Virus record (IMG/VR): IMGVR_UViG_3300031555_004710
Location: 32,001 to 96,000 of that record
Direction: 5' to 3' (one strand)
DNA length: 64,000 nt
Source: a virus
Lineage: Duplodnaviria; Caudoviricetes
Part shown: positions 1,022-37,358 of the stretch, piece after piece
Numbering within the stretch: position 1 is the stretch's first letter
How the letters are laid out: each line of letters begins with the position of its first letter
Translations under genes and position numbers: made by a program
Notes under the pieces: model-generated
Database searches by the model: none
Told to the model about the DNA's origin: nothing
Seen by the model: the letters and a program-made list of their open reading frames with translations, nothing else

Positions 1022-1093
1022 GTTTTTATCCTCCTTTTTATTATTCACAAAAATAATACATTATAATAAATAATTTTCAAATAACATCAATAT

Positions 1094-1275
1094 AATGAGG
1101 GAGAGGCTAGAATTTATCCTCCAATAAATCTTGTTAGTATACATGCTGATTTTTTACTAACACTCCTTTAAAATGTAAATTTTACCCATTTGCTCTTTTT
1201 GCACTTTTAACCACATTTAATCTCCCTCAATTATATTAAATCCCTAGTACACTCTTTGCCAAGTGTACTAGGGAT
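1094..1275 (+). ncRNA. Putative late small RNA 1: multibranch structure with anti-SD segments
   Basis: AACA-N6-TA at 1083-1094; closing stem TGAGGGAGA/TCTCCCTCA; internal hairpins; terminator hairpin about 1240-1275; no ORF on +. Confidence 0.6.
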
Positions 1276-33514: not shown

Positions 33515-36181
33515 TTAATAAAGTTGCATTGTCGACTGATTCGGATATGAATCTATTATTTCTGGAGTTGTCATTATAATATTTACAGGTAAACCACTCT
33601 GCTGGAAAATATCATTATGAGTTATTAAGAATACTTGCTCAGTACCAAGTGCCTGCATTTGTTTCGCTAGTATCATTATAAACTTCTCTCTATCAGCTTT
33701 ATAGATACTATTATCAATTTCATCCAATAGCATTATATTATAATCAAACATACTTTTTCTACAAAGAGCAAATGATAGTGCAATACTTATGACTGCCTGT
33801 TGACCTTGCGAAGCTAATTCAATATCCGAAACTTCATTTCCATTAATTTTATATGGTATCTTAAACTCATTACTTGATTCAGATATATCAAAGTTTACTA
33901 TTTCTAATTCATCTTCAAATATATCTGATATCAAATCATTAATGATTTCTTTACATTCATCTAGGAATACTTTTACCATTATTAACGGAATACCTTCCTT
34001 AGATGAGACTGCATCAAGTATTAATTTTAATGTATTTCTCTCATCTAAATATTCCTGATAAGATGATTTTGTTGAAGCTATATCTTGGAGTTGCATCTTT
34101 AATTTCATGGCCTTATTATTAGTCTCGGTATATATCATTTCTAATGAACTAGCTTCAGCCTCAAATATTTTCATATTCTGAATATTGGAACTAACTTTAG
34201 AAATCTTTTCAGTAATTTCTGCTAACTCTTTAGTATTCATTTCTATTGAATTAATTAATTCTTTTTTCTGAATATGATAATCTCCAGCATGTTGTAATAA
34301 AGCTAATCGTTTTTCAATACTATCTTTTTCACTTATTAACTCTTGATGAGTTTTCTGTTTATCACTCAATGTTTCTAATATAACTTCAGCATCCTTTTCC
34401 AAATCGGCTAATTCTATCTTCTTCATTTCAATATCAGTATTTTGAAGAGCTAGAATTTCATTTTCAGTTTTATAATATTCATTCTGAAGTTGCTCAAAAT
34501 CTTCTTTCATCTTTTCTTTCTCAGTTATATTAATTAATTTATCGTAATCATACCAATTACTTCTTGCATCGATAGAAGTAAGTAATCGATATAAATTTCT
34601 CTCATTTAATATTCCAAGAGTATCTAAGATAGAAGAAACTTTTTCCCACATCTTTTTCAAAAACTGCATTTTTGGATACTGAGTAATATATTCTTCATGA
34701 ATTGCTATTTCAACATCAAGAGCATCTATCTGATTTTTAATATCCATTATAGAATCATTTCTAGGGTCTTTACTCGCATTCTTAATAATTTGTGGATGAG
34801 ATTGTATGAATGGACAACTTTCAGTAGGACACATTGGGGGTCGATATAATGGTATTGGGCTTTCATATTCTGAAGAAAATTTAATATTAGAAAGAAGTTT
34901 TTGTAAATTAACCTGCCTTCCTATAAGTATATTTAATTTCTTTTTTGCCCAAGGAATTATAGTCGAATCAGAATTATATAATTTTCCAATAACTTCTCTT
35001 CGATTTAAACACATTTCCTCCATTATCATATCAAAATTTTTAATTACTTCAGGTAAACTAACAAGATATGAATAGGTATAACTACATTGAAAACCTTCTA
35101 GCATTCTTATACTATCATGATATTTAGTTTTAATATCATATGCTTTTTTCTGTAATTCAGCTAGCTGACTATCATTATTTTGTATTAATAGAAATTCTTT
35201 AATTTTATTACATCTAGTTTGATTATCAGAATACGATGTTTGCAGATTTAAAATATTCTCATGTATAGAATTTATCTTTGCCGATAACTCTCCATACTTA
35301 ATAGAAATATCTTGCATATTTTCAGTAGGAATATTTAATAGAATTTCTTCTATTTCTCCCAATTCATTCTTATCAGCTTCAATTTTATCTTCTATACTTT
35401 TAGAAAGTAATATTAAACTATCGGCCGATTCTTTTCCTATCATCGCGCTATTCATGCCTTGTAACTTAGCAATCTCGGCTTTAGCTTTATCTATCTTTTT
35501 ACGTAAATCAAATAAGCCATCTTCCAATTCTTCCAATTCTGCCTTTATCGAATTTTCATTATCTGAAGATAATCCTACTAATTTATTGGATAGTACTGAT
35601 AAAGCACTATTCATATTACGATAATCTTCCGAAAGCTTCTGATGTAGCATTGTATATATTTCAGTATCTTTTAACAGTGATGCAATAAATGATTTTCTTT
35701 CAGTTGACTTCATGTTTATTAGATTTGCAACATTTGGTCCTAATCTCAGAAGTCTTAAGAAATTTTGGTCTATGCCAAATTCAGTACGAATAATTTCTTT
35801 AAAAGTTCGAATATTTCCATTCTCATTTAATTCATTACCATTTAATTGAATAAACGATTTTGTAGAATGAGTTTGACCATTTTTATTCCAAGTATATTTA
35901 TGCTGTATAGTATAAATATTTCCATTATGAATATACTCAATTTCTTTTAATCCATCTTCTCCTGGAATAATTAATCCTTCTTGATTTCGAATATCTAAAG
36001 TCCCATACGTTGAAAATGGTTGTAGATGACCCAATATACTAGATTTCCCACTACCCATTTTCCCTATAAATATATTAATCTTTTGATTATTTTTAGAAAG
36101 ATTTAGTTCAATTTCATGCTTATGCATTCCTGCATATATATGAATAAAATTCTTTAAATAAAGTCTAGTTATTTTCCACAT
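33515..36181 (-). CDS. sbcC: SbcC/Rad50-like SMC ATPase
   Basis: GKMGSGKSS, long coiled coil with central C-x4-CPF, ASQGQ signature, LLDEID, ITH; start refined to ATG 36181. Confidence 0.9.
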   Translation of the reverse strand: MWKITRLYLKNFIHIYAGMHKHEIELNLSKNNQKINIFIGKMGSGKSSILGHLQPFSTYGTLDIRNQEGLIIPGEDGLKEIEYIHNGNIYTIQHKYTWNKNGQTHSTKSFIQLNGNELNENGNIRTFKEIIRTEFGIDQNFLRLLRLGPNVANLINMKSTERKSFIASLLKDTEIYTMLHQKLSEDYRNMNSALSVLSNKLVGLSSDNENSIKAELEELEDGLFDLRKKIDKAKAEIAKLQGMNSAMIGKESADSLILLSKSIEDKIEADKNELGEIEEILLNIPTENMQDISIKYGELSAKINSIHENILNLQTSYSDNQTRCNKIKEFLLIQNNDSQLAELQKKAYDIKTKYHDSIRMLEGFQCSYTYSYLVSLPEVIKNFDMIMEEMCLNRREVIGKLYNSDSTIIPWAKKKLNILIGRQVNLQKLLSNIKFSSEYESPIPLYRPPMCPTESCPFIQSHPQIIKNASKDPRNDSIMDIKNQIDALDVEIAIHEEYITQYPKMQFLKKMWEKVSSILDTLGILNERNLYRLLTSIDARSNWYDYDKLINITEKEKMKEDFEQLQNEYYKTENEILALQNTDIEMKKIELADLEKDAEVILETLSDKQKTHQELISEKDSIEKRLALLQHAGDYHIQKKELINSIEMNTKELAEITEKISKVSSNIQNMKIFEAEASSLEMIYTETNNKAMKLKMQLQDIASTKSSYQEYLDERNTLKLILDAVSSKEGIPLIMVKVFLDECKEIINDLISDIFEDELEIVNFDISESSNEFKIPYKINGNEVSDIELASQGQQAVISIALSFALCRKSMFDYNIMLLDEIDNSIYKADREKFIMILAKQMQALGTEQVFLITHNDIFQQSGLPVNIIMTTPEIIDSYPNQSTMQLY

Positions 36182-36285
36182 AATTTCATCATTTCCTTTC
36201 AATAAAATAATATATTAAAGGATTATTTTTTAAAATAATATAAAAAATGAATACCATAAAATTTATTTCTAAATAACAATATACT

Positions 36286-36602
36286 AATGGATCCGAGAAG
36301 TTGATTCATTTCTATTAAATTTTTTAATTTAATAGACATTTCTTATTCTGCATCCGTCTTAAAACGGTAAAAGCTAATTTTTTCTCATTGTTCCCCTTGT
36401 GTTGATAGAGTTTTTTGTTGACATAGGCATGTAAGTCGAAAGTATTTTGCACCACATACGTTCTGCATTGACTATTCAGAGTTTTATGCTAGTATATGGT
36501 AAAAGTACTATAAAATAAGGGTCGTAGAAGAAACCCGTTGTTATCTTCTACGACCCGACCTTTCTGAATCTTTTTTAATGAAGTAGATTACTCTACTTCA
36601 TT
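36286..36602 (+). ncRNA. Putative late structured RNA 2 (about 300 nt)
   Basis: AACA-N6-TA at 36275-36286; several stems including GGGTCGTAGAAGA/TCTTCTACGACCC; no ORF; terminator 36577-36602. Confidence 0.55.
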
Positions 36603-36611
36603 ATTTTCTTT

Positions 36612-37358
36612 TCAATCAATATTTGCATCAAATACATCCTGAGATGATATGATTAATTCAGAATCCAAAGGATGACCAATTGTTTCTCCTCCAGCTTCTT
36701 CTAATATAATTGTGTATTTTAAATTTAATGCTTCTGTACATCTATCAAATAAAAGCATTGATAGTCTATTAGGACCACGCAATACCTGCTTAGTATTGAA
36801 AAGCATGTTTTTAGAAGCAAATCTTATTTTATATTGATCAAGATCTACACCTTTATTGGTAATTGCTCGTTTAATAAGTTTCTTTAAAATATCGTCATCT
36901 AATGATTCAGGTGGTATTGATGAATGAGATGCGTCTGGTGTATTAAATATAACTATCTCATGATTTAATACAGCATTACGAATTTCATCGGCGTCTTGAC
37001 GAGTTATCTTATTTGCATAACGATATTCTTCAATTTCCTCTGGAGTTTCTGGATGGCATATGACATAGTTGCAACTTTCATCATCGTAGTAAACGCCAGG
37101 GCTTACTTTTTCAAAACCTTTAAGATCAGATAACTTTCCTTTATAGAAGTAATAATAATCTCCATTTAAATAAGCTATAGAAGGATCTAACTCTATACCA
37201 TTATCTAGTTTGAAATTTTTACCTTCATTACCAAAGCCATTGACTGTAAAATCCATTGGGCATAGTAATTTAGTTTGATAGTACTGCTCACCGATTTTTA
37301 ATAATGTGCTATTTGATAAAATTCTATTTGGGTTATCATTTAATAATTCATTTTTCAT
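36612..37358 (-). CDS. Hypothetical protein, possible C-terminal XRE-like HTH
   Basis: LIKRAITNKGVDL…LSMLLFDRCTEALNL pattern; weak. Confidence 0.5.
   Translation of the reverse strand: MKNELLNDNPNRILSNSTLLKIGEQYYQTKLLCPMDFTVNGFGNEGKNFKLDNGIELDPSIAYLNGDYYYFYKGKLSDLKGFEKVSPGVYYDDESCNYVICHPETPEEIEEYRYANKITRQDADEIRNAVLNHEIVIFNTPDASHSSIPPESLDDDILKKLIKRAITNKGVDLDQYKIRFASKNMLFNTKQVLRGPNRLSMLLFDRCTEALNLKYTIILEEAGGETIGHPLDSELIISSQDVFDANID

What the first reader, a model, noticed from the sequence alone, without database searches (positions are those of the whole stretch)
36275..36602. Second late-promoter, ORF-free, highly structured RNA (about 300 nt)
Seen: AACA-ATATAC-TA points into a gap in an otherwise minus-strand block, and sbcC has its own promoter motif at 36207, so this is not its leader. 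Stems: TCTATTAAATT/AATTTAATAGA, CCGT/ACGG, a long imperfect stem about 36441-36459/36492-36509, a 13-bp GC-rich stem 36519-36531/36544-36556, and ATTCAGA/TCTGAAT (alternative pairing or pseudoknot). TTTTTTCTCATTGTTCCCCTTG reads like the antisense of an RBS plus AUG, but I found no target in this window. Inference: an undescribed phage ncRNA.
Basis: partly seen in the sequence, partly recalled or inferred. Interest (0 to 1): 0.75.

Follow-up and report, generated by a model that had tools for sequence, protein, structure and literature searches.

The report
Late structured RNA gene, jumbo phage
A 410-base protein-free gap in an uncultivated giant phage related to Bacillus phage AR9 most likely holds a separate gene for a roughly 325-base folded RNA made late in infection; its closest relative keeps the same promoter, folds and terminator, but its job is unknown and it occurs only in a narrow lineage.

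Summary
Window 36203-36611 is an ORF-free gap between two minus-strand genes of a 237-kb AR9/PBS1-like jumbo phage. On the plus strand it has a site matching this phage's own late-promoter consensus (W-rich, AACA-N6-TAA, start at A36286). A stack of hairpins follows (fold z = -7.3), then an intrinsic terminator (36576-36613).

The only close relative I could reach (L011) keeps all of this. It has the AACA-N6-TA motif with a different spacer, the 5' hairpin, hairpin 2, a long central hairpin with an identical apical loop, a GC-rich hairpin and the terminator. All 32 scored pairs stay paired, 5 of them through changes on both sides. G-U pairs and fold energies favour the plus strand. No ORF is shared, no Rfam family matches, and no decayed gene is detectable.

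Two first-reader details do not hold up. The "anti-RBS" tract lies in a window-specific insert and has no target above chance in the phage. The proposed pseudoknot is not conserved.

Two more distant relatives carry a shorter RNA unit of about 130 nt in the same slot, but homology to it could not be shown. Function is unknown. The best guess is a stable trans-acting late RNA that also overlaps, antisense, the 3' end of the convergent gene. Expression is untested. The scan had noted this same stretch before (e1-5496384), without follow-up.

The parts
36275..36286 (+). Late (non-virion RNA polymerase type) promoter AACA-ATATAC-TA; predicted start at A36286; the next base A gives the 'TAA' seen at 46 of 49 gene-proximal late sites of this genome
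   Evidence: AR9 consensus AACA-(6N)-TA/G with the last base as the start (PMC5312081). Conserved in L011 with a different N6.
36286..36310 (+). P1: 5'-terminal 8-bp hairpin AAUGGAUC/GAUUCAUU with the invariant 9-nt loop CGAGAAGUU
   Evidence: One double (U-A to C-G) and one wobble change in L011. Sense -4.3 against antisense -0.9 kcal/mol.
36311..36336 (+). P2: 11-bp A/U hairpin (8 bp in L011, distal half rewritten with 3-4 compensatory pairs)
   Evidence: (I3)
36337..36432 (+). Variable linker, about 60 nt longer than in L011. It holds the small CCGU/ACGG hairpin (36354-36367), the pyrimidine/C-rich tract 36378-36399 and a G-U-rich hairpin at about 36397-36428. Not conserved.
36433..36442 (+). 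Conserved single-stranded element AAGUCGAAAG, identical in L011
36442..36510 (+). Long imperfect central hairpin capped by the conserved apex GACU-AUUCAG-AGUU (loop 36474-36479). The 11 nt CUAUUCAGAGU are identical in L011.
   Evidence: Sense against antisense energy is -18.2/-14.3 in the window and -21.1/-7.3 in L011.
36519..36556 (+). GC-rich 13-bp hairpin. On the minus strand it is followed by UUAUUUUAU, so it probably also terminates the convergent minus-strand operon.
   Evidence: (I4). Kept in L011 as a 14-bp stem with G-C to A-U exchanges (read by eye).
36557..36575 (+). Single-stranded pyrimidine-rich tract GACCUUUCUGAAUCUUUUU (L011 has AUCUCCUUUAUUCUU at this place)
36576..36613 (+). 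Intrinsic terminator T1 of the RNA: 12-bp hairpin plus UUUUCUUUUC. It is antisense to the stop codon and the ancestral last codons of the convergent gene.
   Evidence: (one compensatory pair)
36200..36215 (-). Early promoter of sbcC (ATATATTATTTTATTG, start at G36200), divergent from the RNA promoter, with the two starts 86 bp apart
   Evidence: AR9 early consensus AAATATATATTAT-(6N)-G.
36612..37358 (-). Convergent neighbour: conserved 248-aa protein of unknown function (77 relatives, no Pfam or PHROG hit), used as the anchor to find related loci
33515..36202 (-). SbcC-like ATPase gene, the other neighbour

Best explanation
Window 36286 to about 36611 (plus strand) is a free-standing gene for a non-coding RNA of about 325 nt in an AR9-like jumbo phage.

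Inferred steps:
- The phage's non-virion RNA polymerase starts at A36286 from an AACA-N6-TA late promoter. This promoter sits back-to-back with the early promoter of sbcC.
- The transcript folds at once into a 5'-terminal hairpin (P1). P2, a variable linker, a long central hairpin and a GC-rich hairpin follow.
- It ends at an intrinsic terminator that abuts the convergent 248-aa gene.
- The 5' hairpin and the terminator should make it a stable RNA.

Most likely mode of action (inference, about 1 in 3): it works in trans through the three single-stranded elements that stay invariant while the stems drift. These are the P1 loop CGAGAAGUU, the AAGUCGAAAG element and the AUUCAG apical loop. They could bind a protein or pair with another RNA late in infection.

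A side effect, or second function, follows directly from the anatomy. Its last 100 nt or so are complementary to the 3' end of the convergent operon's mRNA.

Shown: the sequence features, their statistical excess, their conservation with compensatory changes in one close relative, the strand asymmetry and the absence of a shared ORF. Not shown: transcription, stability, partners. The confidence given is for 'a real, separately transcribed non-coding RNA gene on the plus strand', not for the mode of action.
For: Promoter
- AACA-N6-T[AG] is three-fold enriched in intergenic DNA: 66 of 227 sites lie in 9.5% of the genome.
- 49 sites lie within 150 nt upstream of a same-strand gene. All 49 have TA and 46 have TAA, preceded by W-rich bases. 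The 36275 site fits all of this.
- The motif is the experimentally mapped AR9 late promoter (PMC5312081).
- L011 has AACA-TCCATA-TA at the same distance from P1.

Structure
- z = -7.3 for the window and -6.7 for the L011 RNA.
- On 32 pairs of P1, P2, the apical stem and the terminator, 100% of cells are paired. Five pairs changed on both sides and 3 by wobble. Slid controls give 34-44% paired and 0-1 double changes.

Strand
- P1 and the central hairpin fold far better in the plus sense in both phages, because of G-U pairs.
- The U-run follows the terminal hairpin only in the plus sense, in all four loci examined.

Not coding
- No ORF is shared by the window and L011.
- None appears under other genetic codes.
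- There is no tblastn trace of the small genes that fill this slot in other relatives.

Precedent
- AR9 has a mapped late start (115851, plus strand; tabulated as 'antisense g142') in a gap of the same minus-strand block, two genes upstream of its sbcC. It gives a short terminated transcript.
Against: - No expression data exist for this uncultivated phage.
- The AACA-N6-TAA motif alone would occur by chance in a 400-nt AT-rich gap about once in ten.
- Hairpins next to gene ends can be plain terminators, and the GC hairpin and T1 may be conserved partly for that reason. T1 is also partly constrained by the C-terminal codons of the neighbour.
- A relative at 58% protein identity (L013) has no RNA here. 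A model of the 5' domain finds no copy in five related phage records or elsewhere in this genome. The RNA is therefore dispensable or young.
- No trans target was found for any single-stranded element.
Confidence: 0.66

Rival explanations
1. The unit matters mainly in cis. A late promoter fires against the end of the convergent minus-strand operon. This gives a transcript whose 3' 100 nt or so pair with the 3' end of that operon's mRNA (last codons of the 248/256-aa gene plus its 3' UTR). The result would be RNase III-type processing, altered mRNA stability, or insulation of early sbcC transcription from late read-through. The upstream hairpins only stabilise the RNA.
For: - The two convergent terminators overlap. 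The GC hairpin plus UUAUUUUAU works for the minus sense and T1 plus a U-run for the plus sense.
- T1 and its U-run cover the stop codon and the ancestral last 8 codons of the neighbour.
- The nearest upstream promoter motif on the minus strand is a late one at window 42925.
- AR9's positional analogue is listed as an antisense transcript of g142.
Against: - The best-conserved parts are at the 5' end and in the centre (P1 and its loop, AAGUCGAAAG, the apical loop). These lie outside the overlap.
- In L011 the GC hairpin has no U-run in the minus sense.
- A 3' overlap would not need 225 nt of structured upstream RNA.
Confidence: 0.15
2. There is no RNA gene. The gap is a spacer holding terminators for the minus-strand operon, the sbcC early promoter and AT-rich hairpins. 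The AACA-N6-TA match is chance or a weak, inconsequential promoter.
For: - Chance expectation of the bare motif in 400 nt is roughly 0.1 per strand (from the coding-region density).
- The slot is highly variable among relatives and is empty in L013.
- The minus strand also folds well (z = -5.1).
Against: - The motif is kept at the same place in L011 although its 6-nt spacer is completely different. It is followed in both by the same hairpin starting at +1.
- The helices are kept through 5 double changes.
- About 275 nt of the gap lie beyond any minus-strand terminator, yet they hold the most conserved blocks.
- G-U pairs make P1 and the central hairpin plus-strand-specific.
Confidence: 0.1
3. 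The conserved 5' block encodes a tiny hydrophobic peptide on the minus strand. In the window it would be MNQLLGSISILLFRNKFYGIHFLYYFKK from the ATG at 36309, or 38 aa from 36339. In L011 it would be MNQLLGPIIWMLRIIFKLL. The plus-strand RNA would then be its antisense partner, as in a type I toxin-antitoxin pair.
For: - An ATG-initiated ORF begins at the same place in both phages with the same first six residues.
- Two of the three nucleotide differences in that stretch are synonymous (and read).
- The peptides are hydrophobic with basic ends, like Ibs/Fst-type toxins (established knowledge).
Against: - Neither ATG has a Shine-Dalgarno sequence in front (AAUAGAA AUG), although genes of this phage have strong ones (contexts).
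- Similarity ends after residue 8 or so, and the lengths are 28/38 against 19 aa.
- All three differences are equally explained by pair-preserving changes in P1.
- The rest of the 'ORF' overlies the promoter.
- No minus-strand promoter was found upstream.
- No such ORF exists in L005 or L014.
Confidence: 0.05
4. The RNA imitates the 3' end of 16S rRNA (decoding-site strand AAGUCG..., a helix-45-like hairpin, an anti-Shine-Dalgarno tail). It would then decoy a factor or nuclease that recognises that end, or soak up ribosome-binding sites.
For: - The window and L011 carry AAGUCGAAAG and, after the last internal hairpin, a CCUUUCU / CUCCUUU tract.
- The short RNA of L014 aligns to real Bacillota 16S 3' ends better than its shuffles do (p from 0 to 0.0125 with 400 shuffles; p 0.004-0.014).
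- Another late RNA of this genome was noted to expose an anti-SD copy (e1-5496371).
Against: - For the window RNA and for L011 the similarity to 16S 3' ends is no better than for shuffles (p about 0.65 and 0.48).
- L005 gives p of about 0.15.
- The Rfam SSU model does not match anywhere in the genome.
- The idea was formed after looking at the sequences.
Confidence: 0.03

Closest known systems
AR9 late 'antisense g142' transcript (start 115851, plus strand; Lavysh et al. 2017, PMC5312081, Table S3)
   Same: - It belongs to the same phage group.
- It has an AACA-N6-TA late promoter pointing against a minus-strand block.
- It lies in an intergenic gap a short way upstream of sbcC.
- It has no ORF.
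- It ends at a hairpin with a U-run that abuts the 3' end of the convergent gene.
- Its start site was mapped experimentally.
   Different: - It is only about 85-90 nt long, with an unstructured A-rich 5' half.
- It shares no sequence similarity with the window RNA.
- The flanking genes are not homologous (hhalign probability 0.4%).
- Two genes lie between it and sbcC.
- Its function is also unknown.
Other orphan RNA genes of this same phage noted by the scan (e1-5496371 at window 1083-1275; e1-5496382; e1-5496420)
   Same: They use the same late-promoter type with a TAA start, are ORF-free, end at their own terminator and match no Rfam family. The RNA at window 1083 also starts UAAUG and carries CU-rich tracts.
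   Different: There is no sequence or model similarity: the 5'-domain model finds only this locus in the genome. Sizes and folds differ.
RsaE/RoxS (Rfam RF01820) and similar Firmicute sRNAs with C/U-rich seeds
   Same: The layout of the 3' third is similar: a stable hairpin, a single-stranded pyrimidine-rich tract, then a terminator. L011's 3' third gives a weak RsaE hit (28.3 bits, E = 0.3).
   Different: - The score is far below the gathering threshold of 79 bits, and there is no hit at all for the window.
- This RNA is three times longer.
- Its pyrimidine tracts are not the conserved parts.
- No targets were found above chance.
Large ornate phage-associated RNAs (GOLLD RF01998, ROOL RF03087)
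   Same: They are structured, ORF-free RNAs of unknown function carried by phages of Gram-positive bacteria.
   Different: No model match, even at E up to 10. The window RNA is much smaller, and its predicted fold is a row of hairpins; no multi-domain fold was seen.

Membership tests
AR9-type late transcription unit | AACA-(6N)-TA/G motif with the last base as the start site | tested here: met
   36275-36286 AACA-ATATAC-TA. It fits the extended consensus of 49 gene-proximal sites of this genome and is conserved in L011. The consensus comes from PMC5312081.
AR9-type late transcription unit | Transcription by the non-virion RNA polymerase late in infection | not testable with these tools
   No transcript data for this uncultivated phage.
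Independent ncRNA gene | Own intrinsic terminator in the sense orientation | tested here: met
   12-bp hairpin 36576-36603 plus UUUUCUUUUC. The equivalent feature is present in L011, L014 and L005.
Independent ncRNA gene | No conserved ORF on either strand | tested here: met
   The only shared ORF start (MNQLLG...) lacks an SD and diverges after about 8 residues.
Independent ncRNA gene | Secondary structure maintained by compensatory substitutions | tested here: met
   32 of 32 pairs are kept in both sequences, 5 with double changes; slid controls give 34-44%. Power is limited: only two sequences.
Any Rfam 15 family | Score at or above the family's gathering threshold | tested here: not met
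   No hit at gathering thresholds across the window. The best E-value hits are GibS 23 bits (threshold 115) and CRISPR-DR65 20 bits (threshold 43), and RsaE 28 bits (threshold 79) in L011.
Base-pairing anti-RBS sRNA | Exposed seed with complementarity to translation-initiation regions beyond chance | tested here: not met
   RNAduplex of four single-stranded tracts against about 200 phage start regions is no better than with shuffled tracts. There is no near-match to the complement of 36378-36399 in the genome. Host targets cannot be tested because the host is unknown.
Type I toxin-antitoxin | Conserved, translatable small hydrophobic ORF overlapped by the antisense RNA | tested here: inconclusive
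   The ORF start is shared by the window and L011. However, there is no SD, the length is not conserved and there is no promoter.
16S rRNA 3'-end mimic | Similarity to the last 55 nt or so of 16S rRNA above shuffled controls | tested here: not met
   Window p is about 0.65 and L011 about 0.48 against eight real Bacillota 16S ends. Only L014 reaches p <= 0.0125.

The most novel reading that the evidence does not exclude
This may be the founding member of a new family of structured late RNAs of AR9-like jumbo phages. Such RNAs would act in trans through three invariant single-stranded elements (CGAGAAGUU, AAGUCGAAAG, AUUCAG). They would capture a host or phage protein or RNA late in infection, for example a translation or RNA-decay factor. 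The short RNA units in the same slot of L005 and L014, one of which resembles the 3' end of 16S rRNA, would be diverged relatives of the same device.
Probability: 0.25. Interest if true: 0.65.

Novelty: new member of a known kind. Interest (0 to 1): 0.42.

Why it matters
Jumbo phages with their own RNA polymerases are known to make non-coding and antisense RNAs, but almost none has a defined structure or role. This locus is a compact, well-delimited candidate: one late promoter, one terminator, five helices and three invariant loops. It could be tested directly, for instance by in vitro transcription with an AR9-type polymerase, by pull-downs, or in metatranscriptomes.

Together with the other orphan RNA genes already noted in this genome, it suggests that AR9-like phages of uncultivated Firmicutes carry an unusually rich RNA layer. 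On its own it is a lineage-restricted RNA of unknown function, so its weight is moderate.

Tried and rejected
1. Rfam at gathering thresholds across the window, and at E up to 10 on the gap and on three related loci: nothing credible.
2. BLASTN of the gap and of the L011 and L014 RNAs, and TBLASTN of the 248-aa neighbour, against 50,697 GenBank phage records: no match.
3. Pattern scans of IMG/VR with the conserved blocks. The hits (L032-L036, L037) lie inside coding regions of unrelated phages, in numbers expected by chance. L039 is the L005 contig.
The roughly 20 closer relatives seen at protein level could not be fetched.
5. Trans targets. Four single-stranded tracts against all phage start regions, and the complements of the three invariant elements genome-wide, are at chance level.
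6. A covariance model of the short RNA (L014 + L005) gives only generic hairpin alignments of 10 bits or less to the window and L011. Homology of the short and long forms is not shown.
7. A model of the 5' domain finds no paralogue in this genome and no copy in five related phage records.
8. A decayed remnant of the small genes that fill this slot in other relatives: no tblastn signal.
9. Alternative genetic codes: no ORF opens. TGA is a normal stop here.
10. Replication origin or iterons: no repeat family apart from two early-promoter-like copies, and no skew switch.
11. 16S 3'-end mimicry: not supported for the window.
12. A host sigma-A-like promoter inside the RNA (36468-36495): not conserved in L011.

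Full report
**Context.** The window is bases 32001-96000 of a 236.7-kb IMG/VR virus record. Its SbcC-like protein finds Bacillus phages AR9 and PBS1, Listeria phage LPJP1, Staphylococcus jumbo phages and Yersinia phage phiR1-37 as its best cultured relatives. The phage therefore belongs to the AR9-like jumbo phages, which transcribe their genes with two phage-encoded multisubunit RNA polymerases. In AR9, early promoters read AAATATATATTAT-(6N)-G. Late promoters read AACA-(6N)-TA/G, with the last base as the start site (PMC5312081).

**The observation.** The finding lies in a 409-bp gap (36203-36611) between two minus-strand genes. One is the SbcC-like gene (33515-36202). The other is a conserved 248-aa gene of unknown function (36612-37358). 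Two further elements were not listed:
- an 8-bp hairpin that begins exactly at the predicted start site (36286-36310);
- a 12-bp hairpin followed by UUUUCUUUUC (36576-36613), which the terminator scan reports for the plus strand.

The plus strand folds much better than its shuffles (z = -7.3); the minus strand gives z = -5.1. No ORF of 50 aa or more exists in the gap under table 11, TAG=Q or table 4.

**Promoters.** I derived the promoter motifs of this genome itself.
- AACA-N6-T[AG] occurs 227 times, and 66 of these lie in the 9.5% of the genome that is intergenic. 49 lie within 150 nt upstream of a same-strand gene.
- Those 49 sites share an extended pattern: W-rich bases before AACA, always TA (never TG), and A at +2 in 46 of 49. 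The site at 36275 (aaat-AACA-ATATAC-TAA) fits this fully.
- It is one of a handful of such sites with no gene downstream. The next plus-strand ORF is 23 kb away. Several of the others are RNA genes already noted by this scan.
- On the other strand, sbcC has an exact copy of the genome's early motif, ATATATTATTTTATTG, with its start at G36200.

The two promoters are divergent, with their starts 86 bp apart.

**Relatives.** The 248-aa neighbour has 77 relatives in the protein database, about 20 of them at 80-93% identity. That scan gave one close locus and several distant ones.
- L011 (82% identical neighbour) is the close locus.
- L005/L012 (59%), L013 (58%) and L014/L020 (56%) are the nearer distant loci.
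- About 20 more loci have 38-48% identity.

**Comparison with L011.**
- The gap is 330 bp and is homologous in blocks.
- AACA-N6-TA is kept at the same distance from P1, although all six spacer bases differ.
- The first 31 transcribed bases are nearly identical.
- AAGUCGAAAG and CUAUUCAGAGU are identical, and the spacing between them (29 nt) is the same.
- Most of the rest differs.

**Structure conservation.** The L011 RNA also folds far better than chance (z = -6.7).
- I scored 32 pairs of P1, P2, the apical stem and the terminator. Every pair forms in both sequences. Five pairs changed on both sides and three by wobble. Sliding the partners by 1-3 columns gives 34-44% pairing and 0-1 double changes.
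- The GC-rich hairpin is also kept, as 13 bp in the window and 14 bp in L011, with G-C to A-U exchanges. MAFFT misaligns it, so I read this by eye.
- Two sequences give little statistical power, but nothing contradicts the fold.

**Strand.** P1 and the central hairpin contain G-U pairs and are much weaker in the minus sense. The energies are -4.3 against -0.9 and -18.2 against -14.3 kcal/mol in the window, and -5.8 against -1.5 and -21.1 against -7.3 in L011. The U-run follows the terminal hairpin only in the plus sense. The same holds for L011, L014 and L005.

**Coding rivals.** No ORF is shared between the window and L011, except a start 'MNQLLG' on the minus strand that overlies P1 and the promoter. 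It has no Shine-Dalgarno sequence, it diverges after about 8 residues, and it ends after 28 or 38 aa in the window against 19 aa in L011. All three nucleotide differences within it are pair-preserving changes of P1. I keep a type I toxin-like peptide as a 5% rival. The small proteins encoded in this slot in more distant relatives leave no tblastn trace in the gap.

**Short form.** L005 and L014/L020 carry a different, shorter unit of about 130 nt in the same slot and orientation.
- It has an AACA promoter (N6 in L014, N7 in L005) and a 5' hairpin starting at +2.
- An AAGUYG motif, two small hairpins, a single-stranded CUCUCCUUG and a strong terminator follow.
- Compensatory changes occur between the two loci.
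- A covariance model of this unit does not recognise the window or the L011 RNA beyond generic hairpins.

The layout is shared but homology is not shown. L013 has only a terminator and an early promoter here, and other relatives have small ORFs. The slot is therefore variable and the long RNA is confined to a narrow lineage. A model of its 5' domain finds no other copy in this genome or in five related phage records.

**Function.**
- Nothing in Rfam matches.
- The pyrimidine-rich tracts and the three invariant elements have no complementary sites in the phage beyond chance. The host is unknown.
- The ATTCAGA/TCTGAAT pairing is absent from L011.
- The AAGUCG...hairpin...CCUUUCU layout looked like the 3' end of 16S rRNA, so I tested this against eight real Bacillota 16S ends fetched. 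The window and L011 RNAs score no better than their shuffles (p about 0.65 and 0.48). Only L014 stands out, with p <= 0.0125. I drop the idea for the window and record the L014 result as a curiosity.

What remains is anatomy. The RNA has a protected 5' end, a terminator, drifting stems and three invariant single-stranded elements. This pattern is usual for RNAs that are recognised by a partner through their loops. The last 100 nt or so are also antisense to the 3' end of the convergent operon.
- The GC hairpin with UUAUUUUAU probably terminates that operon in the minus sense.
- T1 and its U-run cover the stop codon of the 248-aa gene.
- They also cover the eight codons that follow it in the homologues.

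AR9 offers a mapped precedent. A late start at 115851 drives a short terminated transcript against g142, two genes upstream of sbcC. There is no sequence similarity, and the flanking genes are not homologous.

**Verdict.** The reading 'undescribed late ncRNA gene' is supported as far as sequence analysis can go (about 0.65-0.7). The mechanism is a guess: a trans-acting stable RNA, with a possible cis-antisense effect on the convergent mRNA. It is a new RNA with no family, of a kind already known from jumbo phages. Interest is moderate because it is lineage-restricted, has no functional handle yet and is not shown to be expressed. The scan had already flagged this same stretch once (e1-5496384), without follow-up.

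Noticed in passing
window 36588-36614 (minus strand): The 248-aa gene ends at an in-frame TGA (36612-36614). Its homologues continue 8-10 residues further, to '...(D/N)(E/V)VE*'. Reading on in the window gives KENNEVE and then TAA at 36588-36590, in the loop of the T1 hairpin. TGA is an ordinary stop in this genome (15 of 200 ORFs). This therefore looks like a recent nonsense change or a read-through site, not a recoded genome. The database copy of the protein (P0001, 256 aa) reads the TGA as W.
   Followed up: partly
window 36181-36202 (minus strand): The TTG at 36202 that the ORF listing gives as the sbcC start lies upstream of the predicted early start site (G36200). The real start must be one of the ATGs a few bases downstream of the GAAAGGAAA ribosome-binding site, so the mRNA leader is almost nil.
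   Followed up: no
G000:C1:156266 (-), 202975 (-), 87518 (-), 97747 (-): Further late-promoter sites of the full AACA-N6-TAA type have no gene within 700 nt downstream. The transcripts from 156266 and 202975 would both begin AAGUCG. They may be further orphan RNA genes.
   Followed up: no
L014:3800-3930 (minus strand); also L020: The short RNA unit in this relative resembles the last 55 nt or so of Bacillota 16S rRNA: AAGUCGUA, a hairpin, then AUCAC(U)CUCCUU. This is better than 98.75-100% of its shuffles. The homologous unit in L005 is weaker (p about 0.15).
   Followed up: partly
loci L005-L031, downstream of the 248-aa homologue: The slot between the 248-aa gene and sbcC is a hot spot of variation among relatives. 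L013 has it empty apart from a terminator and an early promoter. L005 and L014 have a short RNA plus an extra gene of about 215 aa. L016, L018, L026, L028 and L031 have one or two small ORFs.
   Followed up: partly
G000:C1:224274-224669 (+): A 131-aa ORF ends at a TGA and would continue for 177 more codons if that TGA were read through. It may be a split gene, a read-through site or a sequencing error.
   Followed up: no
window 36231-36253 (minus strand): A second, imperfect copy of the early-promoter motif (TTATATTAT-TTTAAA-A) lies 28 bp upstream of the sbcC early promoter, between the two divergent start sites.
   Followed up: no
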